Shown here piece by piece: positions 1 through 34,442 of a stretch of DNA of 42,285 bases. The stretch lies in IMG/VR virus record IMGVR_UViG_3300045988_122987; one strand, given 5' to 3'. Under the pieces are notes generated by a model. The model ran no database searches, was not told the origin of the DNA, and saw only the letters and a list, made by a program, of their open reading frames with translations. This DNA is from a virus. Every line of letters starts with the position of its first letter. Position 1 is the first letter of the stretch. Position numbers and translations under genes: made by a program.

Positions 1-99
1 ACATAAGTGCAATATGAACGATTAGTATTTATGCCGCTTTGGTATCTATTGATATACTAAATTTATATCCGCTCGGCTGTGTTCGAGTCCGCGGCACCA
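1..99. repeat. Left copy of a 99-bp direct repeat, identical to 42187-42285. It is either an assembly overlap of a circular genome or a phage direct terminal repeat.
   Basis: Positions 1-99 match the last 99 bases of the window exactly. Position 100 (g) follows the repeat. The right copy sits immediately after a terminator. Confidence 0.9.
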
Positions 100-1582
100 G
101 ATATGCGCAAACATTTTGTGTAGAGAGTGTAACTTTTATCACAGTTCCAGTAACAGTTACATTAGTTACGAGGAGGTCTATCGCACGTTTGGCGTAGTCC
201 ATATTGTTCTTCACAAAAATTTCACTTTTAATAGTCGTCAAAAAGGCGACTATTTTTTTATTATCCAGACTTTCTACGGATTTCACAGAAGCTTCACAAA
301 TAGATTTATTGATTTCTCTCAGCTCCACCTTAATCTGGTTCAGCCGTTGGCGGTCAAACTCGTCTGCTTCGCCTTCTTCAAAAATTTTATAGATATTGTT
401 CAATTTCTTTTCGGCAGCGGCTTTACGTTTTGCAAGAGCTTCTTGTTCTGCAGCATGTCGGGATTCTTCTTCTTGGTAGCCTTTGGCAATGGCATCGGCT
501 ATCCTGCGCATACCGGACACAGTAAAGACAACGCGCTCTAATATCTGCATTACCCAGTGCTCTAATACTTCGGCACGGATCATGCGTTGCTGACACTTTG
601 AAGTAGGAGTCTGTTCTTTGCGCGTGCAGCCATAATAATAATAACGCTGGCGCACACGATGACCAACCATAGCACTTCCACACTCGCCGCAGAATACTTT
701 ACCGGAAAGCAGGTAATCATGTTTGGCTGTATATTTGGCGGCGTGGCAGCGGTTGCGTTCGCGTTTTGCTTGTACGATGAAGAAGTCTTCTTTGCTGATA
801 ATTGCTGGCAGGGCATCTTCGATAGAGATATAATCATCTGGCCTTTTTTGAGAGTGCATATTACGTTTCCCTTTACCTTTCGGAATTTTGTTGAATGTAT
901 ATGTGCCTATATATTTTTCGTTGCCGAGAATATCATACAGACTGTTTTTGCCGAACGGCTTGCCGCTTTTGGTGGTGAAGCCTTTGCTATCCAGCGCGCG
1001 GCAGATTTCAGCATACCCTTTGCCTGCAAGGTATAGCTCAAAAATAAGGCGCACAGCAGCAGCTTCGCTTTCATCAATAACATATTTTTTATCCACAATC
1101 TTATACCCAAGAGGTGGACAACCACCGTTAAAGAGTGCCTTGTAGGCGTTCTCGTTCAGCCCCTTCTTTGTTTCTTTGGACAGGTTGCGGGAATAATAAG
1201 CGGCCATACCAACCATAACAGTTTCCATCACCTGACCTTCGGGCGAATCGGTGTCGATAGGTTGGGCGGCGTATTCGTAGTTTATGCCCAGCCGCTCGAG
1301 CTTATCTTTAAATTTGAAATAGTTTAGCTCGTTCCTGGAATTGCGGTCAATCTTATGGAAGATGATAACATCAAATTTATCTTCCATGGCATCGGCCAGC
1401 ATCTGATTGTAAGCGTCACGCTTGGTAACATCGCGTCCGCTCTTTGCTTCATCAGCATAAGTATCGACAACGATGTAGCCTTTGTTTTTGGCGTAGGCCT
1501 TGCAGGCGCGGACCTGCGCGTCAATAGACTCTTCGCGCTGCATGTCGGAAGAGAAGCGCGCGTAGATAACTGCTCTTTGCAT
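29..1582 (-). CDS. int: Large serine recombinase (integrase), 517 aa.
   Basis: The N-terminal resolvase-type catalytic domain has the motif YARFSS, with the catalytic Ser in the Y-A-R-F-S-S context. A recombinase domain follows, then a zinc-ribbon segment (CGECGSAMVGH...YYYGCTRK) and a C-terminal coiled coil. The SD AAGGAG lies 9 nt upstream of the ATG at 1582 on the minus strand. Confidence 0.9.
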   Translation of the reverse strand: MQRAVIYARFSSDMQREESIDAQVRACKAYAKNKGYIVVDTYADEAKSGRDVTKRDAYNQMLADAMEDKFDVIIFHKIDRNSRNELNYFKFKDKLERLGINYEYAAQPIDTDSPEGQVMETVMVGMAAYYSRNLSKETKKGLNENAYKALFNGGCPPLGYKIVDKKYVIDESEAAAVRLIFELYLAGKGYAEICRALDSKGFTTKSGKPFGKNSLYDILGNEKYIGTYTFNKIPKGKGKRNMHSQKRPDDYISIEDALPAIISKEDFFIVQAKRERNRCHAAKYTAKHDYLLSGKVFCGECGSAMVGHRVRQRYYYYGCTRKEQTPTSKCQQRMIRAEVLEHWVMQILERVVFTVSGMRRIADAIAKGYQEEESRHAAEQEALAKRKAAAEKKLNNIYKIFEEGEADEFDRQRLNQIKVELREINKSICEASVKSVESLDNKKIVAFLTTIKSEIFVKNNMDYAKRAIDLLVTNVTVTGTVIKVTLSTQNVCAYLVPRTRTQPSGYKFSISIDTKAA

Positions 1583-1610
1583 AGAGTCATCTCCTTTTAA
1601 AATTATTGAG

Positions 1611-3215
1611 GTGTTTTGTATGGATTTTGTTATAATAACAGTGCTTTTAATATCTGTAATGGCAGCGTATAGCTATTGGAAAAAATCGAAAGAAAAAGAT
1701 AAGGATATAGCCAGGCTTATAGCTCAAAACAGTTCTTTGTATGACCAAGCGAATAAAAGCAAAAAACAATTAGAGCAAGAGAAGTTGAGGGTAATCAATG
1801 AGTATGGCAAGCTGAAAAGAGAGCTTGTCAGCCAATGTCAATTAGATAAGGCCTTATTGATTAGCGAACACAACCAAGCATTAGAAAATAATGAAAAAGA
1901 AAAAACAAAAGTAATAGATGAATATAGCCAGTTAAAAGCTAAGCTTACAAGTGACTATGAAGCTAAAAAGGCTAAGCTTATTTCCAAAAGTAATCAGTCA
2001 ATAAAAGATTACGAGATTAAAAAAGCAGATTTAATCAGAGATTATATTCAAACAAGAGATAATGTAATGCATGAATACCACAAGGCTCTGGAGGAATTTG
2101 AGCAAGAAAAGCAAGAGGCCATAGCAGAACGTAAAAAAGCTATTGATGATTGTCGCAAACATGAGGAACAGTTAAAAAGACAACATGATTTTAAAAATCA
2201 GGTGTTGAATGAACGCGAGAATCAACTGGCTGAAAGAGAAAAGCTAATGAAGCTGAAGGTAAAAAGCATACCGGTATTAGCCAAGTATTTTTCTGATTTA
2301 GAATTTCAGAAGGATAGCATCAGAGAAGCGTATTTGCTTCAGAAAGAGCGTCCTGCAGTAAAAGCGTCTGATGTTGTCAGTGAAATTCGCCGCGAAAAGC
2401 ACACATTAAATTTAAGGCTTAAAGAAGCAGAGTATCTAGTAAAGTATTATGAGCAAGCTGCTCCATGGCTTGCAGAAGCTGACGATGATTATATAGATCC
2501 GGAGTTAAATAAAACCGGCATCGAAGACTTTGACGAAAACAAAGATGCTGCCAGCTTCTGGCTTTCCAAAGATGAATTTACCCAGCTTACGAGTCAGGAA
2601 AAATATCAGTTAGCTTTAGAGCGATATAAAAAACGTGTTAAAACTAATGCTGAAATTGGACGTGACTATGAAAGATACGTCGGCTATCAATACGAAACCC
2701 AAGGATACGTTGTAGAGTATCGAGGCATAATAGATGGCTTTGAAGACAGAGGACGCGATCTGCTTTGCCATAAGGATGGCAAAACATTAGTTGTTCAATG
2801 TAAATATTGGTCTAAGAAAAAGACGATACACGAAAACCATATCAACCAGCTATTTGGTACAACCTTAAAATATTTTCTCGAACAGCATCCAAGGGCAACA
2901 TTCTATGATTTCTTTACTGCTTTAGAAAAACGGACAATAGCGCCGGTGCTTGTAACCTCAACGACATTATCCGAAACAGCTGCGGAGTTTGCTTCATCAC
3001 TCAATATAAGTGTTGTAGAAAATAAGAGCCTTGGCGATTACCCCATCATTAAATGCAACATCAATAAAACATCTGGCGAAAAGATTTATCATCTGCCATT
3101 TGACCAGCAATACGATAAAGTTAAAATCAGCGGCAAAGGCGAATGTTATGCTATGACTGTTGCAGAAGCAGAAGAAAAAGGTTTTCGCCGAGCTAAAAGA
3201 TGGCTAGGCGAATAG
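1611..3215 (+). CDS. Membrane-anchored coiled-coil protein with a C-terminal Mrr-type (Mrr_cat, PD-(D/E)xK) restriction-endonuclease-like domain, 534 aa. Candidate moron or defence/exclusion gene.
   Basis: The N-terminal hydrophobic helix is FVIITVLLISVMAAYSYW. It is followed by roughly 280 aa of heptad-like K/E-rich sequence. The C-terminal block YRGIIDGFEDRGRDLL...TLVVQCKYW...PVLVTSTTLSETAAEFA matches the Mrr_cat pattern (GxDGGID ... VQCKRY ... TTSxFTxxAxxFA). The gene is markedly AT-rich compared with its neighbours. The SD GAGGTG precedes the ATG. Confidence 0.7.
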   Translation: MFCMDFVIITVLLISVMAAYSYWKKSKEKDKDIARLIAQNSSLYDQANKSKKQLEQEKLRVINEYGKLKRELVSQCQLDKALLISEHNQALENNEKEKTKVIDEYSQLKAKLTSDYEAKKAKLISKSNQSIKDYEIKKADLIRDYIQTRDNVMHEYHKALEEFEQEKQEAIAERKKAIDDCRKHEEQLKRQHDFKNQVLNERENQLAEREKLMKLKVKSIPVLAKYFSDLEFQKDSIREAYLLQKERPAVKASDVVSEIRREKHTLNLRLKEAEYLVKYYEQAAPWLAEADDDYIDPELNKTGIEDFDENKDAASFWLSKDEFTQLTSQEKYQLALERYKKRVKTNAEIGRDYERYVGYQYETQGYVVEYRGIIDGFEDRGRDLLCHKDGKTLVVQCKYWSKKKTIHENHINQLFGTTLKYFLEQHPRATFYDFFTALEKRTIAPVLVTSTTLSETAAEFASSLNISVVENKSLGDYPIIKCNINKTSGEKIYHLPFDQQYDKVKISGKGECYAMTVAEAEEKGFRRAKRWLGE

Positions 3216-3235
3216 CTTGCTTGACTTTTGTACAC

Positions 3236-3286
3236 AAAAAGCAGTAACAGCTTGACTTCTAAAAGTAAAGTTGTTACTGCTTTTTT
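3236..3286. terminator. Bidirectional intrinsic terminator between the Mrr-like gene and the XRE gene.
   Basis: The stem is GCAGTAACA (3241-3249) paired with TGTTACTGC (3272-3280), flanked by an A-tract and a T-tract (AAAAA...TTTTTT). A nested inverted repeat CTTGACTT/AAGTCAAG is also present. Confidence 0.55.
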
Positions 3287-3307
3287 AGGTGAAAAGTCAA
3301 GTTCAGT

Positions 3308-3610
3308 TTACTCTGCAAGCGCACGTACTAACTGCAGTACTGCTTGCTGATTTTTTACGCTTAGTTTATTAAAGCTATTAACGATTTCGGGGGCCTCATC
3401 TGGACCCCAACCCACGATGTACGCAGGCGATACGCCGAAGACTTTGGCTAAAGTCTCTATTTTATCATATGGTATATTGAGTACCTTGCCCGTTTCATAT
3501 CGTTGATATAATGGTGTCTGTATACCGGTCATTCGGCTGACCTCTGGCTGGGTCATGTGATTTTTCTGACGCAGACGCTTTAATCTATCTCCGATCAGCA
3601 TCTTCACCAC
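3308..3610 (-). CDS. XRE-family HTH transcriptional regulator, 100 aa.
   Basis: The HTH motif is LKRLRQKNHMTQPEVSRMTGIQTPLYQRYETGK. On the minus strand the SD GGAGGTGGTGAAG lies directly upstream of the ATG. Confidence 0.8.
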   Translation of the reverse strand: MVKMLIGDRLKRLRQKNHMTQPEVSRMTGIQTPLYQRYETGKVLNIPYDKIETLAKVFGVSPAYIVGWGPDEAPEIVNSFNKLSVKNQQAVLQLVRALAE

Positions 3611-3627
3611 CTCCTTCTGTTGGCACT

Positions 3628-3656
3628 ATAATAACACTAAATGCAAATAAAATCAA
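3628..3656 (-). promoter_or_regulatory. Sigma70-like promoter for the 3308-3610 XRE gene, read on the minus strand as TTGATT-17-TATTAT.
   Basis: The -35 TTGATT is the reverse complement of 3651-3656. The -10 TATTAT is the reverse complement of 3628-3633. The spacer is 17 nt. The same TATAAT on the + strand (3627-3632) could serve a rightward transcript. Confidence 0.45.
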
Positions 3657-3751
3657 TTAAAATTTACAAATAGCGCAAATTTATGACACAAGATTCTGCT
3701 ACAATAAAAGTGTGATTTGAAGACGCGGACCTCATGGAAGGAGGACGCATC

Positions 3752-3850
3752 ATGCAGGAATTGATTTTAGCTGCCATCATCAAAATTGAAGACGAGCATA
3801 TATTGGAAGTTATATATGCCTTCATAACCGAACTTATATCAGATGAATAG
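3752..3850 (+). CDS. Small acidic ORF of 32 aa (MQELILAAIIKIEDEHILEVIYAFITELISDE), absent from the ORF track.
   Basis: A near-consensus SD GGAAGGAGG lies 7 nt upstream of the ATG. A GNRA-loop terminator follows at 3857-3888. Confidence 0.4.
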   Translation: MQELILAAIIKIEDEHILEVIYAFITELISDE

Positions 3851-3856
3851 CGGTGC

Positions 3857-3888
3857 AGCGGTAACGAAAGTTGCCGCTTATTTTTTTG
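3857..3888 (+). terminator. Intrinsic terminator on the + strand after the small ORF.
   Basis: The stem is AGCGGUAAC paired with GUUGCCGCU (9 bp, one G.U wobble) with a GAAA tetraloop, followed by UAUUUUUUUU. Confidence 0.6.
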
Positions 3889-3895
3889 CACAAGA

Positions 3896-3930
3896 AAAGC
3901 CCTGAGCATTAACGCTCAGGGCTTTTTCTT
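3896..3930. terminator. Bidirectional intrinsic terminator at the 3' end of the CI-like repressor gene.
   Basis: The stem is GCCCTGAGC (3899-3907) paired with GCTCAGGGC (3914-3922). It is flanked by AAAA on one side and TTTTT on the other. Confidence 0.7.
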
Positions 3931-4311
3931 TTACTCTTTTTTGTGTTCTTGATAAAGCTTGTCGACAAACTCTTCAAAAGCAGTTTTAAGTTCTGGTGGC
4001 AGTTTGAGATATTCCAGAACCAGACGTTTTGTGAAGTCATCGTCCGACTTGATAAGCCGTCCAACCTGGTGCGCCAGCTCAACATCCACATTAGTTTCCT
4101 GACGGAACATTTCGCCGCTTCCGGTACGCAACCACACTTCATTAACATTAAAAGCATTGCAAATGTCGAGAATAGTACGCTCAGGAATGTTCTTTTCCTT
4201 TTCGTAATCGGCTACAGTGTTTTGTGCACGATTAATTTTTTCTGCTAAGGCTGTTTGCGTTAGTCCTAGACGTTCGCGTAGCACCTTTATTCGCTCGTTT
4301 ATTTCAGCCAT
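3931..4311 (-). CDS. CI-like XRE-family repressor, 126 aa.
   Basis: The N-terminal HTH is IKVLRERLGLTQTALAEKINRAQNTVADYEKEKNIP. The gene is transcribed divergently from the early operon. The SD AGGTGA precedes the ATG on the minus strand. Confidence 0.8.
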   Translation of the reverse strand: MAEINERIKVLRERLGLTQTALAEKINRAQNTVADYEKEKNIPERTILDICNAFNVNEVWLRTGSGEMFRQETNVDVELAHQVGRLIKSDDDFTKRLVLEYLKLPPELKTAFEEFVDKLYQEHKKE

Positions 4312-4332
4312 ATAATCACCTCGCTTTATTCC

Positions 4333-4360
4333 ATTATAGCAGGAGAAAAGAAAAAAGCAA
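4333..4360 (-). promoter_or_regulatory. Leftward sigma70-like promoter for the repressor, TTGCTT-16-TATAAT on the minus strand.
   Basis: The -10 TATAAT is the reverse complement of 4333-4338. The -35 TTGCTT is the reverse complement of 4355-4360. Confidence 0.5.
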
Positions 4361-4365
4361 GAAAA

Positions 4366-4384
4366 TTTATCGAAAAAAGATAAA
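4366..4384. promoter_or_regulatory. Candidate operator: inverted repeat TTTATCG-aaaaaa-GATAAA lying between the divergent -35 elements.
   Basis: The palindrome is perfect (TTTATC/GATAAA). The half-site TTATCG recurs at 4418-4423 and its complement CGATAA at 4450-4455, flanking the rightward -10. Confidence 0.45.
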
Positions 4385-4389
4385 AAGCA

Positions 4390-4418
4390 TTGACGGTACG
4401 ATAACAGAAGAGTATAAT
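4390..4418 (+). promoter_or_regulatory. Rightward early promoter, TTGACG-17-TATAAT.
   Basis: The -35 TTGACG is at 4390-4395 and the -10 TATAAT at 4413-4418, with an exact 17-nt spacer. It sits upstream of the first early gene. Confidence 0.65.
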
Positions 4419-4477
4419 TATCGTAAAGAGCTAATAAAAAATCTTATAGCGATAAATCGGAAAGGCAGGTGAAGGTG

Positions 4478-4672
4478 ATGTATAGCTTTAATGAGCTGAG
4501 TGAAAAACACAATTTGACAGCGGAAGAAAAAAAGACCGCCAAACAAATTCTTGGTTTGCTTAACGGTCAGAATCAAGTAGCAGCAAAGCAGATGCTTGAC
4601 TTCTGCAGCTACGTAATTGAATGTAATTCTAACGTTGCTGTTGTTTTTGAAGAAGAGCGAGCAGAAGCTTGA
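4478..4672 (+). CDS. Hypothetical early protein, 64 aa, first gene of the rightward operon. Its start is adjusted from the GTG at 4469 to this ATG.
   Basis: The SD AGGTGA lies 6 nt upstream of the ATG at 4478. No recognisable HTH is present. Confidence 0.5.
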   Translation: MYSFNELSEKHNLTAEEKKTAKQILGLLNGQNQVAAKQMLDFCSYVIECNSNVAVVFEEERAEA

Positions 4673-4793
4673 TGTTGTTATCGGTAGAGATTATCCGGCA
4701 TTGCTTTTCTTGGTCAATATAAAAAGCGCAGCCTGGACAATCAATTTTAATACCGGTGGCCATACCTCCGGTAATAGGACATTTTTTAGGCAT
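4629..4793 (-). CDS. Possible small zinc-ribbon protein of 54 aa on the minus strand (MPKKCPITGG...DCPGCAF...QCR).
   Basis: Four Cys residues are arranged as CxxT...CPGC...C. Only a distant SD is present. The ORF overlaps the 3' end of 4478-4672 convergently. Confidence 0.2.
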   Translation of the reverse strand: MPKKCPITGGMATGIKIDCPGCAFYIDQEKQCRIISTDNNIKLLLALLQKQQQR

Positions 4794-4877
4794 TTCTATA
4801 AACATAATATCACCTCCGTTCTGTAATACCTATTATAGCACGGAGGGCGGAGTGAAGCGAAGAAAAGAGGATTTAAC

Positions 4878-5117
4878 ATGAAACTTGAGCTTAGCTATGA
4901 TGAGATTTCAACCATTGTCGCTGCTCTGCTGACTAAGGTTATGACCGCAGAGAGCAATGCGCTGAAATGTGCAAAGTATGGCATGGATAAAGATGTTGAG
5001 TTTTGGCAAGAAAGAGCTGAAATCTACAAAAAGGTCTATAAGGTGGTAGCGGCTCAATTCGGACAGGCTTGCAAGGAATGCGAGCAGGCAGATGCGGCGC
5101 TGAAGGAAAGCGAGTAA
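4878..5117 (+). CDS. Hypothetical protein, 79 aa.
   Basis: The SD AAAGAGGA lies 7 nt upstream of the ATG. Confidence 0.55.
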   Translation: MKLELSYDEISTIVAALLTKVMTAESNALKCAKYGMDKDVEFWQERAEIYKKVYKVVAAQFGQACKECEQADAALKESE

Positions 5118-5122
5118 AAGCC

Positions 5123-5404
5123 ATGATGATGATGAAAACCAAAAAGGTAAAACTGTACGGCGAGAAGCTGCGCAAACTGAACACCGCTATCCACGAGCGG
5201 GACAACAACTGCTGCATTATCTGCGGTAAGTACGTGGACCCTAACGAGAAGTTCCATCATGAACCTTGCGGGGCAATGAAGAGTGATGAAATTTCAAAAG
5301 GCGTAACACTCTGCTATGACTGCCACGCTGAACGCCATTTTGGCAAAAACAGTAATGCAGTCAGAGCACAGATTAAAGAATATCTGCAAAGCATTTATAG
5401 TTAA
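5123..5404 (+). CDS. Small Cys/His-rich protein of 93 aa, possibly an HNH-type nuclease or zinc-finger protein.
   Basis: The motifs are CCIICGKYVDPNEKFHHEPCG ... LCYDCHAERH (a C..C..HH...C..CH..H pattern). The start is set at the MMMM cluster just after the upstream stop. Confidence 0.45.
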   Translation: MMMMKTKKVKLYGEKLRKLNTAIHERDNNCCIICGKYVDPNEKFHHEPCGAMKSDEISKGVTLCYDCHAERHFGKNSNAVRAQIKEYLQSIYS

Positions 5405-5418
5405 AGGAGGGTAACACA

Positions 5419-5580
5419 ATGATTGTTGTAACTGATAAGCAGAAAGAAACCATCAAAAAAGTGGAGGATATGGGAAAGGCTGATATTGATGGCCTGAAAG
5501 CAGCCGCCATTTTTCTGAAGGGCCTGCAAACGGCGATGATTATTCTTGCGGAAGACAAGCAGGAAAACAAACCGGCATAA
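5419..5580 (+). CDS. Small ORF of 53 aa (MIVVTDKQKETIKKVEDMGKADIDGLKAAAIFLKGLQTAMIILAEDKQENKPA), absent from the track.
   Basis: A strong SD AAAGGAGGG lies 8 nt upstream of the ATG. It fills the gap between flanking genes. Confidence 0.5.
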   Translation: MIVVTDKQKETIKKVEDMGKADIDGLKAAAIFLKGLQTAMIILAEDKQENKPA

Positions 5581-5593
5581 GGGGCGAAGTGTT

Positions 5594-5752
5594 ATGAACA
5601 GACCTGAAGACTACACCATTGTAGTCGAAAACGAAGGCGAACTGAGCGACTACGCAGTGAATATGTTTGCAAAGTGGGCCTTGGAAATCGGGCGCAAGCA
5701 GGGCTTGTGCGATAAAGAGGGTGAAAAGAAATGTGTAAAGCAAAGCGCATGA
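5594..5752 (+). CDS. Hypothetical protein, 52 aa.
   Basis: The SD AAGGGG precedes the ATG at 5594. The longer track ORF that starts at 5546 has no SD. Confidence 0.45.
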   Translation: MNRPEDYTIVVENEGELSDYAVNMFAKWALEIGRKQGLCDKEGEKKCVKQSA

Positions 5753-5973
5753 CGTGTGCAGAGCTGGAAAACAAAATTGTTGACCATGCCAAACGCTGTA
5801 AAAAATATAAGCCTAACGCAGCAATCAGAGAGCATGAAGCCAGCATGAAATACGAGCGTTTTATGCGGGAGCGCCGGGCAAAGCTGGCGCGTGAAGCTGA
5901 TGAAAGAATGAAGGCCAGCGCTGCCTATGCACTGCGCTTTATCTTCAAGGAGAGATATAAAAATGGCCAATGA
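5731..5973 (+). CDS. Hypothetical basic protein, 80 aa.
   Basis: The SD GAGGGTG precedes the ATG. It is one of a run of small early genes. Confidence 0.45.
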   Translation: MCKAKRMTCAELENKIVDHAKRCKKYKPNAAIREHEASMKYERFMRERRAKLAREADERMKASAAYALRFIFKERYKNGQ

Positions 5974-6451
5974 AAAAACTGTTGTCTGGTATCGTCCAGG
6001 TAAACCGGTGAAGGCCGTGCGTGTTGAGCTTACTTTGGCCAATATGCAGAAGCTGGTGGGCGGTAAGATACAGATCGTACCGCTGGAAGCCAAAGGCAGC
6101 AGCCCGGAATATACGCTGATATGTAATGAGGACGGCAAGAACAAATATCACAATGACGCTTTGTTCCCCCTGCTGAACAATAATGGCAATATCGTAGACG
6201 TTATATTCGGCCCCTGCTTTATCGCCGGTAAGCTGATGACCGATGAGAACGGCGAAGAAACATTTGTCGACTTGCTGCGTGAAGACTATCTGAGAATAGT
6301 CCGCCGCTTTGGGAAAGGAGCTGTGAAGAATGAGAAGAAGGAAACTGCGGAAACTGAGGCTGCTGACCTTAGGCAGCTTACTGCTTGCCGTAATATGCTT
6401 GCTAGATTACGGGCCCGCAAGAATGGTAAGTGCAGCTTATCAGATGGTTAA
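5963..6451 (+). CDS. Hypothetical early protein, 162 aa. It contains the motif LVGGKIQIVPLE, possibly DUF3846-like.
   Basis: The ATG at 5963 has the SD-like GGAGAGAT upstream. The naming is a by-eye hint only. Confidence 0.45.
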   Translation: MANEKTVVWYRPGKPVKAVRVELTLANMQKLVGGKIQIVPLEAKGSSPEYTLICNEDGKNKYHNDALFPLLNNNGNIVDVIFGPCFIAGKLMTDENGEETFVDLLREDYLRIVRRFGKGAVKNEKKETAETEAADLRQLTACRNMLARLRARKNGKCSLSDG

Positions 6452-6671
6452 AGGCCAGGAAGTTACCGAGATTGTTGTACCTTACCATGTATTGGAAGAA
6501 GGAGACACTTTGGAAGGAATCTGCTGCAGATTAAAAGATGAATACGGCGATAAGCGCGACTGGCGCGAAATTGCTTTTTATGTCTGCAAGGATAACAACA
6601 AGAAAGACGGCTGGGTATATCTCGGGGAAAAAATCAATGTGCGCCTGCATGTACCGGTCGAAACAAAATAA
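6330..6671 (+). CDS. Membrane-anchored LysM-domain protein, 113 aa.
   Basis: The N-terminal TM segment is LLTLGSLLLAVICLL. The LysM-like motif is YHVLEEGDTLEGICCRL. A strong SD GGAAAGGAG lies upstream. The ORF overlaps the upstream gene by 122 nt in a different frame. Confidence 0.55.
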   Translation: MRRRKLRKLRLLTLGSLLLAVICLLDYGPARMVSAAYQMVKGQEVTEIVVPYHVLEEGDTLEGICCRLKDEYGDKRDWREIAFYVCKDNNKKDGWVYLGEKINVRLHVPVETK

Positions 6672-6704
6672 AAAAGCCGCCTGCAAAAAGCGCAGACGGC
6701 ATGG

Positions 6705-6747
6705 GGATGTATGAAGTTACCAGCATCCATACATCCCTATTTTAGCA
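6705..6747 (+). terminator. Intrinsic terminator after the LysM gene.
   Basis: A perfect 10-bp stem GGGATGTATG/CATACATCCC (6705-6714 paired with 6729-6738) is followed by TATTTTA. An upstream GC hairpin lies at 6677-6701. Confidence 0.6.
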
Positions 6748-6779
6748 TATAAGAGTGATGATAACAAGGAGGCAAAAAA

Positions 6780-7319
6780 ATGGATTATGACGTCAAATTT
6801 GTTGAATACAAAGGCGGCAATATCAAGGTAAGCTATACCGTCACTCCGCTTAACTCACATGAGGAAGCGAGTATAATCAGCCGCATTGACAAACCGCATG
6901 AAGATTTCATGCGTGCCTGGATGGAGCTGCCTGAAATAGCACGTAGACTGTTGGAGTTTCCGCTGGCCAACGAAGACGGCGAAGAGCTTGGCATTATGGT
7001 TACCAAGGTAAACTTTCTGACAAGCAAAAACTTTGGCAGAGGCATGCAGCTGGTGGCGCTGCTGCTGGGCTTCAAGAACTGCAAGCAGCCGCTGCAGGTA
7101 GTGACGCAAAAGTTTTATGAGAATGCCGTAGATCATAGCAAGAGATACACGGATGAACCGTTTCCTTTGCAACAGTTAACGCCGCGAGAAGCTGATGTTA
7201 TGTTCCTCATAAAGAAGGAAGCCTTTGACTATGCGTATCACTGCAAGCGTGAACAGCCAACAATAGATGAGGCGCAGGACGCCTACGAGAATGGCGGTTA
7301 TCCCGACGAAGAAGAATAA
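6780..7319 (+). CDS. Hypothetical protein, 179 aa.
   Basis: The SD AAGGAGG precedes the ATG. Confidence 0.6.
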   Translation: MDYDVKFVEYKGGNIKVSYTVTPLNSHEEASIISRIDKPHEDFMRAWMELPEIARRLLEFPLANEDGEELGIMVTKVNFLTSKNFGRGMQLVALLLGFKNCKQPLQVVTQKFYENAVDHSKRYTDEPFPLQQLTPREADVMFLIKKEAFDYAYHCKREQPTIDEAQDAYENGGYPDEEE

Positions 7320-7329
7320 AAGGAGTTGA

Positions 7330-8688
7330 ATGAAAATGGCTGTAGTAAATATGCCGGTAGAATGTCTTATCCCGCATCCGCAGAATCCAAGAAAAGACCT
7401 GGGCAATCTGGAAGAACTGACAGCGAGCATTAAAGAGAATGGCATCTACCAGAACCTTACCGTAATCCCGGTAAACGAAGCTATACCGGGTGAAGAGCCC
7501 AAGTATATGGTGGTTATTGGCCACCGTCGCCTGGAAGCTGCGAAACGCGCCGGGCTGCAGGAAGTGCCGTGCGCTATCGTAAGAGGCATGACGGAAACGC
7601 GGCAGCTGCAGACTATGCTGTTAGAGAATATGCAGCGTAGCGACCTGACAGTTTATGAACAGGCTCAAGGCTTCCAGCAGCTTCTGGACTTTGGTATGGA
7701 TATCGAAGATATCTCCCAGCAGAGCGGCTTCAGTAAAAGCACTATCAGACGGCGCTTGGAAATCGCTAAGCTGGACCAGAACAAGCTGAAGGAGCTAAGC
7801 TCTACCCGCCAGCTTAGTCTGAAAGAGTTTGATGCACTAGCCAAAATTAAAAACTTAGAAGCCAGAAATGAAGCAATGGAGAAGATTGGCACAAATGATT
7901 TTGCTCTAGCAGTCACACGCGCCGTGGAGGAAGAAAAGCTTGATGCTGCAATGCCGGTATTCCTGGCAGACATGGAACGCCTTGGCATCAAGAAATTCCC
8001 GGATGGTGCCAATAAATACAGCAGCAAATATAGACGTATCGGCAATATTAATCTTTACCAGTACGAGGAAACAAAAGAAAAAATTCCCAAGAAAACAGCA
8101 GGGGTGTATTATGAGGCCAACTATCCGAGAAACGTAGAGTTTTACGTAAAGGAAACAAAAAAAGGCAAGGCTAGAGAAAAAAGCGCTAAGGAGATTGAAA
8201 AAGAAAAATGTATAAAGGAAGCATGGTTTAAAGTCGATGCTATGGCTGCAACGCATTATGAGCTGCGCAAAGCATTTATGGAAAACTTTAAAGCTACCAC
8301 TAAACAGCATGAGCTCGTGCTGATGGGAGCCTATAGCGTGGCGGTATTGCAGGGAGTTACGTACATGGGATTGGGCAGCGTAGACAAAGAAGCTGGAATA
8401 GATAATAAATACTTTGATCCCAAGCAAGACGAGAAAGCAGTCAAGCTGGCCTTCGATGGTTACTTTGATATCCAGCAATGCGCAAATGTTATCTACAAAT
8501 TGTTCGGTGACAGTGAAAAAGAAAATTATGCCAACAATAGCCGCTTTGGATATCCTACATATAAAATCAATCCAAGACTTGAGGCGCTGTATCATTGGCT
8601 CGTTGCTCTTGGCTATCAGATGAGCAGCGAAGAAAAGCTTCTGGCAACTGGCCAGCATGAAGTATTTCAGCAGATTAAAGGAGCTTAA
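7330..8688 (+). CDS. ParB-like nuclease (ParB/Spo0J N-terminal) domain protein, 452 aa.
   Basis: The N-terminal segment IPHPQNPRK...VVIGHRRLEAAKRAGLQEVPCAIV has the ParBc signature (GHRR ... P). The SD AAGGAG precedes the ATG. Confidence 0.7.
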   Translation: MKMAVVNMPVECLIPHPQNPRKDLGNLEELTASIKENGIYQNLTVIPVNEAIPGEEPKYMVVIGHRRLEAAKRAGLQEVPCAIVRGMTETRQLQTMLLENMQRSDLTVYEQAQGFQQLLDFGMDIEDISQQSGFSKSTIRRRLEIAKLDQNKLKELSSTRQLSLKEFDALAKIKNLEARNEAMEKIGTNDFALAVTRAVEEEKLDAAMPVFLADMERLGIKKFPDGANKYSSKYRRIGNINLYQYEETKEKIPKKTAGVYYEANYPRNVEFYVKETKKGKAREKSAKEIEKEKCIKEAWFKVDAMAATHYELRKAFMENFKATTKQHELVLMGAYSVAVLQGVTYMGLGSVDKEAGIDNKYFDPKQDEKAVKLAFDGYFDIQQCANVIYKLFGDSEKENYANNSRFGYPTYKINPRLEALYHWLVALGYQMSSEEKLLATGQHEVFQQIKGA

Positions 8689-10063: not shown

Positions 10064-10888
10064 TTGAGTGGCATATCAGTGCCGGAAAAAATAACAGCCA
10101 AAACAACTTGGGCAGAATGGAGCGGAAGAATGTATGTAAAACGGACATGGAGATGTGGTAAATGCATCGAAGTAGAAAAATACCAGACCTTCCGCTATAA
10201 GGGAAAGATGACAGTACGTGGTCCGCAAAGCAATCCTACTCCGGAAGCTATGGCCAAGGTGAACGAACGCAACAGCTACAAGAATCTTCGACGCCTGCTT
10301 AATACTAATTTTGGCAAAGGTGACCTGCATTGTGTATTGACTTATGCTCCGGATGAAAGAGCAACCAGTCCGCAGGAAGCAAAAAAAGACATTCAGAAAT
10401 TCTGCCGCAACGTGAAACAGAAATGCAAGCGTCGCGGCTCAAATTTCAAATATGTGGCCGTAGCCGAATACGGTAAGCGCTCTATGCATTTTCATATTGT
10501 TATCCATAGCGAGCTGAAGCTGCAGGAGCTTGGCGATATGTGGCCGCATGGACGTATTCATGCTACGGAGCTGGACGGCAGCGGAGATTATGACAGGCTG
10601 GCCAGCTATCTTATCAAGCAGACCAACAAGACCTACAACGATCCGGAACGCAGAGTGTTTGCCAGACGTTATGTTACGAGCCGTAACCTTGAGCAGCCGG
10701 AGTGTAAGATTGAGAAAGTCAAGGCTGACAGCTGGCGTGAGACGCCGTCTGCACCCAAAGGTTTTTACGTGCTGCAGGATACTATCGTCCAGGACGTCAG
10801 CGAGATTACCGGATATCCGTATCAGTATTACCGTTGCCTGGCACTAGGTGGCGGGAAACCATTGAAAACAAAAAGACTACGCAGGTAG
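10064..10888 (+). CDS. rep: Rolling-circle replication initiator (HUH endonuclease Rep), 274 aa. The start is uncertain: the TTG at 10064, or the ATG at 10130 with a GGAG upstream.
   Basis: The three RCR motifs occur in order: motif I HCVLTYAP, motif II (HUH) MHFHIVIH, and motif III YLIKQTNK (YxxK). An N-terminal CxxC pair (WRCGKC) is also present. Confidence 0.75.
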   Translation: MSGISVPEKITAKTTWAEWSGRMYVKRTWRCGKCIEVEKYQTFRYKGKMTVRGPQSNPTPEAMAKVNERNSYKNLRRLLNTNFGKGDLHCVLTYAPDERATSPQEAKKDIQKFCRNVKQKCKRRGSNFKYVAVAEYGKRSMHFHIVIHSELKLQELGDMWPHGRIHATELDGSGDYDRLASYLIKQTNKTYNDPERRVFARRYVTSRNLEQPECKIEKVKADSWRETPSAPKGFYVLQDTIVQDVSEITGYPYQYYRCLALGGGKPLKTKRLRR

Positions 10889-24566: not shown

Positions 24567-27500
24567 ATGGGAACTTTTAATTTCAGTAATATGCAAGGTG
24601 GCCAACAGCAGGAAACTCAGAACATTCCGCGTGAATTTCGTCCTGCTGTTGAGCAGGCGAAAACGGAACCGGTCGGCTCTTACGGTAACAACAAAACAGG
24701 CTTCTGGGACGAGGTGAAGAATTTTTTCTCCGGTGCAGATGTTGATACCAGTGCCGGCTTTATTGATGAAACAGGAACATGGAACAATGGCACTAAACAG
24801 GAGCTTGCTAAATACTATCCTACACAAAAGAGTGCGGAAGAACTCGAAAAGGACAGATTAGGCTCTTTGTGGGACAGAGCGTATAAAAAATATCATTACA
24901 GCAAAGACGATGTACTGCTTGAAGCAAAGAAAATCAGCGCGGCCACAAACATCCCTGAAAATGCTATCCTGGCTAACGCTGATAATCTGGCCAACGCACG
25001 CAATGTATATAATTATCAGCAGAAGGCTATGGACCCGCAGGAAGTGTTTAAGGCCTACCCTGAGCTGAGCGAGCTGGCCAAGCTGAGTGATACCGACGCT
25101 GCTATTGCTCTGCATAACTTAAAGAACGTGCGCCAGACTCAGGGCATTATTGAAGCAGCTAAGACCGGCTGGGAGCTTGATAACCTGATGAGTGAGCGCG
25201 GCCGTATGGGCAACGGCAAAGAGCTGACGGATGCCGACATTGCACGTTTGGGAGAAATTGAAAAAGCACAGAAAAATTCTAAGGAACTGCCGGGACTTTT
25301 TGAGGACCCGATGAGTGCTATTGTAGGCGGCACAGTGCAGAGTGGCAAGATGATGCTGCGTAATGCTCTTAATGGCCAGAAGATGGGCGTATATGGCGCT
25401 GGCTTCGGCGCGCTTCTCGGCGGTATTGCCGGCGGCGGTGCAACGCTGGGTGCCGGTACTGCTGCAGGCGCGACCGCAGGTGCCAAGATTGGTTATAGTG
25501 TCGGCAGCCGTATCGGTATGGCGCAGGATATGTATGACGAAATCGCCGGCAACAACTACCTTGATTATAAAGGCTATAAGGATAAGCAGGGCAGGCAGCT
25601 GCTGACAGATAACCAGGCGCGCAGCTATGCTGCTGTAGCAGCAGCACTGGAAACCGGCATTGAATTTGCTAACGCAGATAAAATCCTGAACGTCATCAAA
25701 GGCGGTGCAGGTGCGCAGAGCATCAAAGAGATTATCAGCAGTGCCAAAGACAGCACGGAGCTGCAGAGCCTGCTTGCCGCATATCTGCGTGACAGTGCCA
25801 AGAACATCGGAACAGTGGCCATCTCTGAGAGCGCGGAAGAAGGCGTGCAGGAGATGAGCAACAGAATTATTTCTGATATTGCTGCAGCAAACAATCCCGG
25901 CGGTGATATCCCGACATATACGGCAAAGGACGTTATCGTTGGCGGCCTAGAAGCAAGCTGGCAGGCATTGCCTGCGTCTATTGGCTTTGGCGCTGGCGCA
26001 CATGGAGCAAGCACTGTATCGTTTATGCGTCGTGCATCCGCGGCGCTGCAGCTGAAAAGTGAAGAGCAGAAAGCTAACCTGCGTGATGCTAACGGCATAT
26101 CTATGCTGAGAAGTCTTGCTGAGGATATCAAAAATAATGCTTTGTTTAAAAAAGCTCCGGAAGTATATAACGAGGTACTGAATAATCAGCTCAAAGGCAC
26201 GGAGCTGGAAACTATTAACATAGATACAGAGTACGTTCTTAATCAGCAGGGCGGCTATGAGCTTTTGAAATCTGCAGCAAAGGCAGCAGGCATAGGCGAA
26301 CAGTATCTTAAAGACATCATCGATACTAAGGCAGACTTGAAAATCAGTACAGCAGATTATGTATCTAAGCTGCTGCCGACTGAAATCGGTGCTCATCTGG
26401 AAGACTACATCACATTCAGCGATATCAGCGAATGCCTGGCACGCAACAGAGAATATGCCGGCAGGATGCGCCGCGAGATGGACCGCATATTGGCATATGA
26501 GAACCGCCAGCGTGAAGATGCTTTGAATACCTACCTTGACAATAACTTCCATACTCCGGAAACCCGTGAGATAGCAGAGGCAGTATTGCGCCGCTTCCCG
26601 GATAATCCTAAGGAAGGCGTAAAGGAAATCAGAAAATCGCTGCAGGCCAAGATTGACGAGCCGCTTAATCAGATTATCGAAGAGCTGGAAAAGGGTATGG
26701 GTAACGGCGTAGCTGTAGTAGAAATCCCGGAATATGATAATCAGATGCGTGGCCGTGGTATCAAGGTAAGCAATAATGACCCTTGGTATCAACGCTACTA
26801 TAAAGAGAATAAGCATAAGCCCTCTAAGATGGAGCTGCGTGAGCTGGCGCGTGAGATTTGGACCGGCCACAACGAGTATGGACTCTTTGGCTGGGAAAAC
26901 CGCACTCCGGAAGATAACCAATGGTATGAGAATAACAAGGCATCCATGGAAGCAACGGAAGAAGCCATCCGCAGATTGGATGCGCTGACGCCTGCTCTGG
27001 AAGAAATAGATCCGGGCGAACTCTCTATTACTGAAGGCCTGAGCGAAGAAGGCTTTGAGGTATATCGTAAGCTGCGTGGCAAGCTGGAAGGCGCTGAAAG
27101 CAAAGAAGTGCGGCAGGCAGCACAGAAGAGGGCTATCCTTGCCGCACGAATGGCAGACCGTATGGCTGAGCTGCATAGACAGGTTGGCCATACTAAATAC
27201 ACTGCGCTTGATTATGCGCGTAGTATTGGGCTTATCAGAAGTGAAAGTGAAGCTGCGGAGCAGAAGTTTAATCAGGCCGCTATGCGTAAGGAAAATAAGC
27301 GTTATGTATTAAATGAAGATGGTAACGTCGATTGGGGAAATGTCAATGAATTTGTTGCCGATGATGGTACAACAATAAAAAAAGCACCCGTAAGGATGCA
27401 GATTGGATATCAGGTTGGCGCCGGTGATGCTGGAGCAGGTTATATTCATATAAAGAATAGACATACTGGATTTATAGAAGGGAAAGGATATAAGAATGTA

Positions 27501-34394: not shown

Positions 34395-34426
34395 AAGCCC
34401 TGGCTGATGCCGGGGCTTTTGCTTTA
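34395..34426 (+). terminator. Leader hairpin with U-tract downstream of late promoter copy 3.
   Basis: The stem is AGCCCUGGC-UGAU-GCCGGGGCU, followed by UUUGCUUUAU. Confidence 0.5.
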
Positions 34427-34442
34427 TGGAAAGGAGCAGAAG

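What the first reader, a model, noticed from the sequence alone, without database searches (positions are those of the whole stretch)
1611..3215. AT-rich moron in the lysogeny module: membrane anchor, long coiled coil and Mrr-type nuclease domain
This 534-aa ORF is wedged between the integrase and the repressors, with terminators on its 3' side. It has much lower GC than its neighbours, which indicates horizontal acquisition. Its architecture is an N-terminal TM helix, then about 280 aa of K/E-rich coiled coil, then a C-terminal PD-(D/E)xK Mrr_cat-like domain (GIIDGFEDRGRD ... VVQCKYW ... VLVTSTTLSETAAEFA). A membrane-tethered nuclease expressed from a prophage is a plausible superinfection-exclusion, abortive-infection or anti-plasmid defence effector. 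This domain combination is not one of the standard named defence systems.
Basis: partly seen in the sequence, partly recalled or inferred. Interest (0 to 1): 0.75.

Follow-up and report, generated by a model that had tools for sequence, protein, structure and literature searches.

The report
Membrane-tethered Mrr nuclease, prophage cargo
A temperate phage of the gut bacterium Phascolarctobacterium carries, as a swapped-in cargo gene next to its integrase and repressors, a DNA-cutting enzyme anchored to the cell membrane on a long helical stalk. It belongs to a large unstudied family and probably destroys incoming foreign DNA, much like the recently described SNIPE defence but built from unrelated parts.

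Summary
The ORF is real, but the true start is ATG 1620 (531 aa), not GTG 1611.

**Architecture**
- N-terminal TM helix.
- About 190 aa of variable amphipathic stalk.
- A conserved 134-aa helical domain with no known relatives.
Its only fold matches are to the DNA-binding N-terminal domain of Ada, and they are weak.

**Cargo status**
- Window 1597-3219 is a precise indel. It is absent from six phages with 93-98% identical integrases and the same repressors; three examined carry small membrane-protein genes instead.
- GC3 is 0.33 against 0.50 for the rest of the phage.

**The family**
- It has at least 846 clusters at 50% identity and spans many phyla.
- It has no conserved partner gene and no methyltransferase.
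- In 21 of 43 distinct viral contigs it lies directly downstream of a CI-like repressor.

**Known systems**
- It matches no PADLOC model.
- It is not a homologue of SNIPE, but it shares SNIPE's layout.

**Verdict**
The best reading is a lysogen-expressed, membrane-tethered defence nuclease that acts on entering DNA. Function is inferred, not shown.

The parts
1597..3219 (+). Cargo cassette (indel): -10-like TAAAAT, RBS, the whole CDS and 4 bp after the stop
   Evidence: blastn of the window against the nuclease-free phage L168. Window 1-1596 aligns at 96.6%, 3220-3303 at 80.7% and 3308-4679 at 93.1%. Only 9 bp lie at the junction in L168. The intergenic alignment shows that similarity to L168 ends right after the integrase RBS complement.
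1609..1614 (+). Shine-Dalgarno GAGGTG, 5 nt upstream of ATG 1620
   Evidence: Read from the sequence. Conserved in four of the five nuclease-bearing phages aligned.
1620..3215 (+).
   Evidence: The exact 531-aa product is on record. Core dN/dS is 0.10-0.17 against four relatives.
1626..1679 (+). N-terminal transmembrane helix (F6-W23), predicted N-out/C-in
   Evidence: Mean hydropathy 2.43, no K/R before it and five K in the 15 residues after it. A comparable segment is present in 171 of 243 complete family members. The topology rests on the positive-inside rule only.
1680..2252 (+). Variable K/E-rich amphipathic helical stalk (aa 24-214)
   Evidence: AF2 models helices 4-82 and 94-218. The 3.6-residue periodicity is reached by 1 of 2000 shuffles. 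The N-terminal region varies from 0 to 425 aa across the family. Stalk dN is 0.48-0.74 where core dN is 0.065-0.11.
1934..1980 (+). 33-nt (11-residue, hendecad) repeat unit KAK[LI]TS[DE][YC]EA[KE], bounded by AAA[AG]GCTAAGCTTA
   Evidence: Direct repeat D19, spaced 33 nt apart. Alleles of 531, 542 and 553 aa that are more than 95% identical differ by 1, 2 or 3 copies of this unit.
2253..2654 (+). Conserved helical central domain (aa 215-348) with no recognisable relatives
   Evidence: Conserved across the family. No significant hit in Pfam or among PDB sequences, and no DUF4041 match. pLDDT is mostly 83-94 with a disordered loop at aa 293-311.
2655..3020 (+). Mrr-type PD-(D/E)xK nuclease domain (aa 349-470); catalytic E354, D379/D383, Q396-x-K398
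3021..3212 (+). C-terminal 'sunset' module (aa 471-534), a putative DNA-backbone-binding domain with an Ada-N-like fold
3220..3301 (.). Bidirectional terminator-like hairpin; part of the phage backbone, not of the cassette
   Evidence: It is retained at about 80% identity in nuclease-free relatives.
29..1582 (-). Large serine recombinase (integrase), divergent neighbour
   Evidence: Pfam Resolvase, Recombinase and Zn_ribbon_recom.
3308..3610 (-). XRE-type HTH regulator, convergent neighbour
   Evidence: Pfam HTH_31 and HTH_3.
3931..4311 (-). Second XRE/CI-type HTH regulator
   Evidence: Pfam HTH_3 and HTH_19, with a weak Phage_CI_repr hit.

Best explanation
**What it is (shown)**
- The gene is a self-contained cargo cassette in the integrase-repressor interval of a temperate Phascolarctobacterium phage.
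- It encodes a single-pass membrane protein.

**Inferred architecture**
- The first few residues face outwards. The rest is cytoplasmic, by the positive-inside rule.
- A stalk of about 190 residues carries a conserved head. If the stalk were one straight helix it would be up to about 29 nm long, at 1.5 A rise per residue.
- The head consists of a helical domain of unknown function, an Mrr-type PD-(D/E)xK DNase with an intact Mg-binding E...D...QxK site, and a small Ada-N-like module that probably grips the DNA backbone.

**Inferred mechanism**
- The protein is made in the lysogen and acts as a single-gene defence.
- Because it is tethered to the membrane, it is kept off the nucleoid and placed where foreign DNA enters. 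It cuts incoming phage (or other mobile) DNA at or near the entry site.
- This would be nuclease-based superinfection exclusion, analogous to SNIPE.
- The variable stalk, including its 11-residue copy-number variation, would act as an exchangeable adapter or spacer.
For: **Active enzyme under selection**
- Mrr_cat profile hit and fold matches.
- Catalytic residues invariant in 248/248 sequences.
- Core dN/dS of 0.10-0.17.

**Membrane tether**
- Hydrophobic N-terminus followed by K-rich sequence.
- Seen in 84/107 and 171/243 family members.

**Cargo status**
- Precise 1.62-kb indel relative to phages with 93-98% identical integrases.
- Deviant GC3.
- In three nuclease-free relatives examined (L168-L170), the same interval holds other small membrane or secreted proteins.
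- The integrase-repressor interval is the documented place for Sie genes in lactococcal phages (PMC7693887).

**Link to lysogeny across unrelated phages**
- In 21/43 distinct IMG/VR loci a CI/XRE repressor gene lies immediately upstream on the same strand.
- 32/43 have an HTH gene within two genes, and 13/43 an integrase.
- The same slot is used in a phage with a tyrosine integrase.

**Single-gene, patchy accessory distribution**
- 435 confirmed hits among 185,579 species genomes, across many phyla.
- No conserved partner and no methyltransferase.
- Neighbours include ToxN, AbiEii, DpnI and PIN TA genes.

**Functional precedent**
- SNIPE has the same layout: TM, variable N-region (66% with TM helices), conserved middle domain, C-terminal nuclease, N-out/C-in.
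- SNIPE cleaves phage DNA during injection and is toxic when the TM is deleted.
Against: - No expression, localisation, nuclease or phage-challenge data exist for any member.
- No credible promoter was found. The sigma-70-like hits are no more frequent than in shuffles, and the cassette starts only 23 bp upstream of the ATG.
- In this window the gene is convergent with the repressors rather than co-transcribed with them.
- About 30% of family members lack a TM-like segment. Most chromosomal copies show no prophage context (14/73 with an HTH gene, 9/73 with an integrase). Membrane tethering and phage linkage are therefore frequent but not universal.
- A stalk tens of nanometres long could place the nuclease away from the membrane rather than at it.
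- The middle domain is not DUF4041 and the nuclease is not GIY-YIG. The SNIPE parallel is architectural only.
- Topology rests on the positive-inside rule alone.
Confidence: 0.5

Rival explanations
1. It is a type IV (modification-dependent) restriction enzyme of the Mrr kind. The conserved helical domain and/or the sunset module would read a DNA modification, and the nuclease would cut modified foreign DNA anywhere in the cell. The membrane anchor would be incidental or only regulatory.
For: - The catalytic domain is Mrr_cat with the D...QxK variant typical of Mrr.
- The best structural neighbours include the modification-dependent enzymes MspJI and AspBHI.
- It is a solitary nuclease with no methyltransferase partner.
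- Sources name it 'restriction endonuclease'.
Against: - It has no recognisable modification-reader domain (winged helix, SRA or similar).
- About 70% of members carry a TM anchor, which is not a known feature of type IV enzymes (own knowledge).
- One nuclease-bearing prophage (L001) also encodes a C5 DNA methylase. That would be awkward for a 5mC-dependent enzyme, though it is not excluding.
Confidence: 0.2
2. It is an abortive-infection or toxin-type effector. The nuclease is held inactive at the membrane and, on sensing infection (for example envelope perturbation transmitted along the stalk), degrades host and phage DNA indiscriminately, killing the infected lysogen.
For: - It is a tethered nuclease with an intact active site and a long helical stalk that could transmit a signal.
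- Weak, coiled-coil-only resemblance to the ZorA tail.
- Chromosomal neighbours include Abi and TA genes.
- PD-(D/E)xK effectors of abortive systems (Cap4, Can2, Card1) are among the fold matches.
Against: - It has no sensor domain of a known type.
- It has no periplasmic part beyond about 3 residues.
- The PADLOC hits are insignificant (E = 0.16-0.18) and cover only the coil.
- Bioinformatics alone does not separate this reading from the direct-cleavage model.
Confidence: 0.15
3. It has no defence role. It would be a DNA-processing enzyme used by the phage itself (host-DNA breakdown during lytic growth, or help with excision or replication), or a cellular housekeeping nuclease acting at the membrane that phages have picked up.
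For: - Most chromosomal copies sit among ordinary genes without an obvious mobile-element context.
- The core is strongly conserved across phyla, at about 40-50% identity.
Against: - It is absent from near-identical, apparently complete phages, so it is dispensable for the phage life cycle.
- It is placed in the lysogeny module, usually behind the repressor gene, not among lytic genes.
- Its occurrence is very patchy: 435 of 185,579 species genomes, a lower bound from pattern matching. That speaks against housekeeping.
Confidence: 0.1

Closest known systems
[quoted passage not shown]
   Same: - Single-gene system.
- An N-terminal TM helix with a very short outside part and the rest cytoplasmic.
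- A poorly conserved N-terminal region of very variable length.
- A conserved middle domain followed by a C-terminal nuclease, forming an elongated helical protein.
- A similar share of homologues with a TM (66% in SNIPE, about 70% here).
- Sources.
   Different: - The nuclease is PD-(D/E)xK Mrr_cat, not GIY-YIG.
- The middle domain has no detectable similarity to DUF4041.
- It has an extra Ada-N-like C-terminal module.
- It is found in lysogeny modules of temperate phages.
- There is no experimental evidence for any member. This is an analogue, not a homologue.
Mrr-family / type IV restriction endonucleases and the Mrr-like protein AF1548 (PDB 1y88)
   Different: - It has no N-terminal DNA-reader domain.
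- Instead it has a TM anchor, a stalk, an unknown helical domain and a sunset module.
Prophage superinfection-exclusion proteins in the integrase-repressor interval (e.g. lactococcal Sie2009; PMC7693887)
   Same: - The same genomic slot.
- A hydrophobic N-terminus and predicted membrane association.
- Cargo that varies between related phages.
- Sources.
   Different: Known Sie proteins are small and have no enzymatic domain. This one is 531 aa and carries a nuclease.
Shedu (SduA, DUF4263 PD-(D/E)xK nuclease with variable N-terminal sensor domains)
   Same: Both are single-protein PD-(D/E)xK nucleases with a conserved C-terminal core and a highly variable N-terminal region.
   Different: It has no DUF4263 or PADLOC SduA match. 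It belongs to a different nuclease subfamily and has a different linker.
N-terminal domain of Ada (PDB 1u8b, 1eyf), compared with the sunset module only
   Different: - There is no sequence-level similarity by HMMER.
- The four Zn-binding cysteines are not conserved. The invariant residues here are C482, H494 and D498.
- The model confidence is low.

Membership tests
Mrr_cat (Pfam PF04471) / PD-(D/E)xK restriction-endonuclease-like superfamily | Profile match above the curated threshold | tested here: met
   aa 344-470 alone scores 37.9 bits, E = 2.2e-9, against a cutoff of 21. On the full-length protein only Mrr_cat_2 hits, at 22.5 bits against 22.
Mrr_cat (Pfam PF04471) / PD-(D/E)xK restriction-endonuclease-like superfamily | Catalytic E ... 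D ... (Q/E)xK residues present and conserved | tested here: met
   E354, D383, Q396 and K398 are invariant in 248/248 sequences, and D379 in 247/248.
Mrr_cat (Pfam PF04471) / PD-(D/E)xK restriction-endonuclease-like superfamily | alpha-beta-beta-beta-alpha-beta core fold | tested here: met
Mrr_cat (Pfam PF04471) / PD-(D/E)xK restriction-endonuclease-like superfamily | Mg-dependent DNA cleavage | not testable with these tools
   Needs biochemistry.
Type IV restriction enzyme (Mrr-like) | A DNA-modification reader or DNA-binding domain N-terminal to the nuclease | tested here: not met
   The N-terminal 348 aa are a TM helix, a helical stalk and a helical domain with no Pfam or PDB match.
Type IV restriction enzyme (Mrr-like) | Cleavage dependent on modified DNA | not testable with these tools
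   Needs biochemistry or genetics.
Type II restriction-modification system | Cognate methyltransferase gene adjacent | tested here: not met
   There is none in the window's neighbourhood. No DNA-methyltransferase family is listed among the commonest Pfam families for 121 nearest neighbours of chromosomal copies, and none flanks the plasmid copy.
SNIPE | N-terminal transmembrane helix with a cytoplasmic C-terminal part | tested here: inconclusive
   A hydrophobic helix is present and the charge distribution predicts N-out/C-in. No dedicated topology predictor or experiment was available.
SNIPE | DUF4041 middle domain | tested here: not met
   No DUF4041 hit at E <= 1-10 for the query or for 26 family members.
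SNIPE | GIY-YIG nuclease domain | tested here: not met
   The nuclease is PD-(D/E)xK.
SNIPE | [quoted passage not shown] | not testable with these tools
   Needs experiments as in PMC13190303.
Prophage superinfection-exclusion (Sie) genes | [quoted passage not shown] | tested here: met
   The precedent is PMC7693887.
Prophage superinfection-exclusion (Sie) genes | Blocks DNA entry of heterologous phages when expressed from the prophage | not testable with these tools
   Needs phage challenge.
Shedu | DUF4263 nuclease domain | tested here: not met
   No Pfam DUF4263 hit and no PADLOC Shedu hit.
Zorya (ZorA) | MotA/ExbB-like multi-pass membrane domain plus a long tail | tested here: not met
   The PADLOC ZorA hits have E = 0.16-0.18 and cover only the coiled region. 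The protein has a single TM.
'sunset' domain (NCBIfam NF051437) | Profile match above the curated threshold | tested here: inconclusive
   23.6 bits against a cutoff of 27, E = 3.8e-5, covering the full model length 1-42. The PHROG 21287 C-terminus gives supporting evidence.
Ada N-terminal Zn-binding domain (for the sunset module) | Cys4 zinc site and a profile match | tested here: not met

The most novel reading that the evidence does not exclude
This would be a second, evolutionarily independent family of membrane-tethered nucleases that tells self from non-self by location, cutting DNA as it crosses the inner membrane.
- It is built from an Mrr-type nuclease, an Ada-like backbone clamp and an unknown helical domain.
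- An exchangeable hendecad stalk, whose length is tuned in 11-residue steps, would set reach or specificity.
- The family is spread across many phyla and is repeatedly captured by temperate phages as a repressor-linked superinfection-exclusion gene.
Probability: 0.35. Interest if true: 0.8.

Novelty: new variant of a known kind. Interest (0 to 1): 0.6.

Why it matters
**If the inferred mechanism holds**
- Nuclease-at-the-gate defence would not be a peculiarity of one family (SNIPE). It would be a convergent solution reached with unrelated nuclease folds.
- Temperate phages of gut anaerobes would be using it as superinfection exclusion.

**A natural experimental design**
- The family has at least 846 clusters at 50% identity and is currently annotated only as 'restriction endonuclease'.
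- Nuclease-free sister phages exist that differ by a clean 1.6-kb cassette.
- Alleles exist that differ only in stalk repeat number or in the whole stalk.
- Together these would let one test how tether length and the N-terminal adapter shape specificity.

**Annotation**
- The result flags the conserved 134-aa helical domain and the Ada-like 'sunset' module as unstudied parts likely to hold the regulatory logic.

Tried and rejected
**Searches that gave nothing useful**
- PADLOC-DB: only insignificant ZorA coiled-coil hits.
- PDB sequence search with the full protein and with profiles of the sunset and central domains: nothing meaningful.
- Pfam on the central domain of 26 members: only low-complexity or coil noise (BLI1, SRP_TPR_like) and no DUF4041.
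- AFDB50 fold library: unavailable.
- INPHARED phage genomes: no DNA match for the first 8 kb and no protein match for the core. No cultured phage reference exists.
- Tandem Repeats Finder on the gene: nothing. The 33-nt unit appeared only through allele comparison and the direct-repeat search.
- Rfam and tRNA scans of the window: nothing.
- Promoter scan: hits no more frequent than in shuffles.

**Literature**
- 'sunset domain' has no relevant paper.
- No paper combining an Mrr nuclease with a TM and coiled coil describes this family.
- The DefensePredictor paper and the metagenomic-selection paper do not mention it.

**Ideas rejected**
- That low GC is merely a consequence of K/E-rich composition: rejected by GC3 and synonymous codon usage.
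- That the terminator came with the cassette: rejected because it is kept in nuclease-free relatives.
- That the hydrophobic N-terminus is a cleavable signal peptide: unlikely. It has no positive n-region, a 18-19-residue hydrophobic stretch, and a strongly basic flank on the C-terminal side.
Full report
**1. Is it there?**

An ORF runs 1611..3215 on the + strand. The GTG at 1611 lies inside a GAGGTG Shine-Dalgarno sequence at 1609-1614. The ATG at 1620 follows it at the right distance. The closest relatives start at MDFVII, and the exact 531-aa product from ATG 1620 is on record on 7 contigs. The gene is therefore 1620..3215.

It diverges from a large serine recombinase (29..1582, -) across a 37-bp gap. 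It converges on two XRE-type HTH genes (3308..3610 and 3931..4311, both -).

The 92-bp gap at its 3' end is almost entirely one hairpin. Its arms are 3220-3258 and 3263-3301, dG is -35.9 kcal/mol and z is -5.85, with A-runs and T-runs on either side. That fits a bidirectional terminator.

GC is 0.370 against 0.464 for the window. GC3 is 0.333 against 0.498 +/- 0.057 for 16 other genes. This holds for both halves of the gene, and synonymous codon choice differs too. The composition signal is real and is not just a consequence of K/E-rich protein.

**2. Anatomy**

- **TM helix.** F6-W23 is an 18-residue hydrophobic helix with nothing basic before it and KKSKEKDKD after it. By the positive-inside rule this predicts N-out/C-in. 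That is an inference.
- **Stalk.** AlphaFold2, run with a 107-sequence alignment, gave mean pLDDT 83. It models residues 4-82 and 94-218 as two long helices. The stretch aa 24-214 is 50% K/E/Q/R/D with no proline. It has a 3.6-residue hydrophobic periodicity that only 1 of 2000 shuffles reaches.
- **Central domain.** A conserved helical domain spans aa 215-348.
- **Nuclease domain.** An alpha/beta domain spans aa 349-470.
- **C-terminal module.** A small beta-rich module spans aa 471-534.

The alpha/beta domain is a bona fide Mrr-type PD-(D/E)xK nuclease:
- Scanned alone, it hits Pfam Mrr_cat at 37.9 bits, E = 2.2e-9.
- Foldseek finds AF1548, MspJI, Cdn1, NucS and Hjc.
- E354, D383, Q396 and K398 are invariant in 248 of 248 family sequences, and D379 in 247.
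D383, K398 and E354 are the residues to target.

- It matches NCBIfam's 'sunset' domain just below threshold and the C-terminus of a PHROG labelled 'membrane associated protein'.
- It is the most conserved part of the family. C482, H494, D498 and Y501 are invariant.
- Its motif reminded me of the DNA-binding N-terminal domain of Ada, so I tested that.
- There is no sequence-level support.
- I take this as weak but specific support for a DNA-backbone-binding role. Ada's Cys4 zinc site is not conserved.

The central helical domain has no detectable relatives in Pfam or the PDB. In particular it has no similarity to DUF4041.

**3. It is cargo**

I searched IMG/VR with the serine recombinase and found 17 related phages.
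- Six of them have integrases 93-98% identical to this one and the same two repressors (76-98% identical). All six lack the nuclease.
- Three with more distant integrases (78-80%) carry it.

DNA alignment to one nuclease-free phage (L168) shows 96.6% identity over window 1-1596. Next comes the terminator at 80.7% (3220-3303), then 93.1% over 3308-4679. Only 9 bp sit at the junction. Window 1597-3219 is therefore a clean 1.62-kb indel. It holds a TAAAAT hexamer, the RBS, the CDS and 4 further bases. The terminator belongs to the backbone.

Among phages that carry the nuclease, the short intergenic sequence is conserved. Similarity to L168 stops right after the integrase RBS complement.

The three nuclease-free relatives examined hold different small genes in the same interval, directly behind the repressor gene:
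- multi-pass membrane proteins;
- a signal-peptide protein;
- a small protein with a TM helix and a coil.

None of them has an informative annotation. The interval is a cargo hotspot for envelope-associated proteins. In lactococcal phages it is the documented location of superinfection-exclusion genes such as sie2009, which encodes a small membrane protein with a hydrophobic N-terminus (PMC7693887).

**4. The family**

- The conserved core (aa 215-534) finds 846 clusters at 50% identity with E <= 1e-30, and 2018 with E <= 1e-3, among 1.84 billion representatives. The core is at the C-terminus of the protein in the 150 best matches listed.
- The region in front of the core varies from 0 to 425 residues, with a median of 163. 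A TM-like N-terminus is present in 171 of 243 complete members, and more often where the stalk is long.
- A pattern scan of one genome per species confirmed 435 copies among 185,579 species. They include Bacillota, Bacteroidota (many Hymenobacter), Chloroflexota, Patescibacteria, Proteobacteria, Planctomycetota, Acidobacteriota and one archaeal MAG. Core identity is typically 40-50%. This is a patchy, accessory distribution.
- The immediate neighbours of chromosomal copies are heterogeneous. The most frequent Pfam family, Zn_ribbon_Top1, appears only 4 times in 121 neighbours. No DNA-methyltransferase family is listed among the commonest Pfam families. There are scattered ToxN, AbiEii, DpnI and PLD genes.
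- One copy sits among TA genes, another among ordinary genes, and four on Hymenobacter plasmids as a lone 'restriction endonuclease'.
- IMG/VR holds at least 158 copies. Among 43 distinct viral loci:
  - 21 have a CI/XRE-type HTH gene immediately upstream on the same strand;
  - 28 have one within two genes upstream;
  - 32 have one within two genes on either side;
  - 13 have an integrase within two genes, and in 11 of those it lies downstream.

  The usual viral arrangement is thus repressor, then nuclease, then integrase. That position implies co-expression with the repressor in the lysogen. This is an inference by analogy with cI-linked exclusion genes.
- The gene also occupies the integrase-repressor slot in a phage with a tyrosine integrase.
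- No deposited phage genome carries it.

**5. Evolutionary behaviour**

Core dN/dS is 0.10-0.17 in four comparisons, so the gene is under purifying selection. In the same pairs the stalk is far more diverged, with dN of 0.48-0.74 against 0.065-0.11 in the core. In the P. succinatutens allele the stalk is effectively a different sequence joined to a nearly identical core. The N-terminal part behaves as an exchangeable module.

Within the >90%-identity cluster, alleles of 531, 542 and 553 aa differ by one, two or three copies of an 11-residue unit, KAK[LI]TS[DE][YC]EA[KE]. At the DNA level the unit is bounded by a 14-nt repeat spaced 33 nt apart. Eleven residues is three helical turns, so these changes alter stalk length without changing the helical phase.

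**6. How it most likely works**

Shown:
- a conserved, selected Mrr-type active site;
- a hydrophobic N-terminus;
- a long helical linker;
- cargo status;
- recurrent placement next to phage repressors;
- solitary occurrence without a methyltransferase.

Inferred:
- The protein sits in the inner membrane with its head in the cytoplasm.
- It is made in the lysogen.
- It cuts DNA that enters the cell.
- Tethering keeps it away from the chromosome.

The precedent is SNIPE (PMC13190303). SNIPE is a single protein with an N-terminal TM (N-terminus periplasmic), a variable N-region, the DUF4041 middle domain (called a central coiled-coil domain in PMC9519451) and a GIY-YIG nuclease. It cleaves lambda DNA during injection, and it becomes a chromosome-cutting toxin when the TM is removed. 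66% of SNIPE homologues have TM helices, against about 70% here.

The two families share layout and evolutionary pattern but no homologous domain. This is convergence, not membership.

I put 0.5 on the tethered defence nuclease acting on entering DNA. The rivals are:
- a type IV, modification-dependent enzyme whose anchor is secondary (0.2);
- an abortive-infection effector (0.15);
- a non-defence role (0.1).

The main weaknesses are:
- no identifiable promoter;
- the convergent orientation in this particular phage;
- the 30% of members without a TM;
- a stalk that could hold the head up to tens of nanometres from the membrane;
- the complete lack of experimental data.

**7. Novelty and verdict**

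The functional claim stays open.

The family is not in PADLOC v2, and I found no paper that describes it. Public annotation is only 'restriction endonuclease' or 'hypothetical protein'.

The catalytic domain is well known, and the strategy now has a published analogue. I therefore rate it a new variant of a known kind, with moderate-to-high interest (0.6).

Noticed in passing
window 24567-34328 (+): A giant 3253-aa ORF. Its only Pfam hit is LPD23, a 'large polyvalent protein-associated domain', at aa 1483-1533 (E = 8e-21). It is probably a polyvalent, possibly injected, protein of this phage.
   Followed up: partly
window 1934-1980; proteins P0248, P0249, P0259: The stalk holds an 11-residue (33-nt) hendecad unit. 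Its copy number is 1, 2 or 3 among alleles more than 95% identical, giving lengths of 531, 542 and 553 aa. This is in-phase variation of stalk length.
   Followed up: yes
L168:5496-5894, L170:5166-5892, L169:4891-5900 (equivalent to the window's 3304-3307 junction): Three examined sister phages that lack the nuclease carry other small genes directly behind the repressor gene in the same interval. These encode multi-pass membrane proteins, a signal-peptide protein and a TM-plus-coil protein. None has an informative family hit. The interval is a cargo hotspot.
   Followed up: partly
L001/L002 8001-9620 compared with window 1620-3215: The alleles are mosaic. The P. succinatutens allele has a nearly identical core (dN 0.065) but an essentially unrelated stalk (dN 0.61). 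This suggests recombinational exchange of the N-terminal module.
   Followed up: partly
window 1632-1660 (-): A promoter-like site on the minus strand (ATTACA-17-TATTAT, with an extended -10 TG) lies inside the nuclease's TM-coding region and points at the integrase start. The cassette separates the integrase from its former upstream sequence, so it may supply the integrase promoter. This is unverified, and promoter-like hits are at chance level.
   Followed up: no
window 3857-3927 (+): Two strong terminator-like hairpins (9 and 14 bp stems) lie between the two HTH genes on the + strand, although both genes are on the - strand. A 246-nt minus-strand ORF (3664-3909) overlaps them. What they terminate is unclear.
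   Followed up: no
window 7330-8688, 10064-10888: The phage has a ParB-like protein and a rolling-circle-type replication initiator (REP_ORF2-G2P). In the sister prophage L001, a C5 DNA methylase replaces the ParB-like gene at the same position.
   Followed up: no
window 1-8000 and whole window: There is no nucleotide match to any of 50,697 deposited phage genomes. No tape-measure-like gene was recognised among the large ORFs scanned. This is an uncultured phage lineage of Phascolarctobacterium (Negativicutes).
   Followed up: partly
window 34407-36050 (+): The tail-fibre gene also has low GC3 (0.38 against 0.50), which suggests a second recently exchanged module.
   Followed up: no
L004:7575-7982 and three other genome loci: A small Zn_ribbon_Top1 protein is encoded immediately upstream of the nuclease, on the same strand, in the Schekmanbacteria locus L004. 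It is the commonest neighbour family of chromosomal copies overall (4 of 121 neighbours). It may be an occasional partner.
   Followed up: no
window 5069-5404 (+): A 111-aa ORF has a CxxC ... HH ... CxxCH motif reminiscent of HNH endonucleases, but it has no Pfam hit.
   Followed up: no
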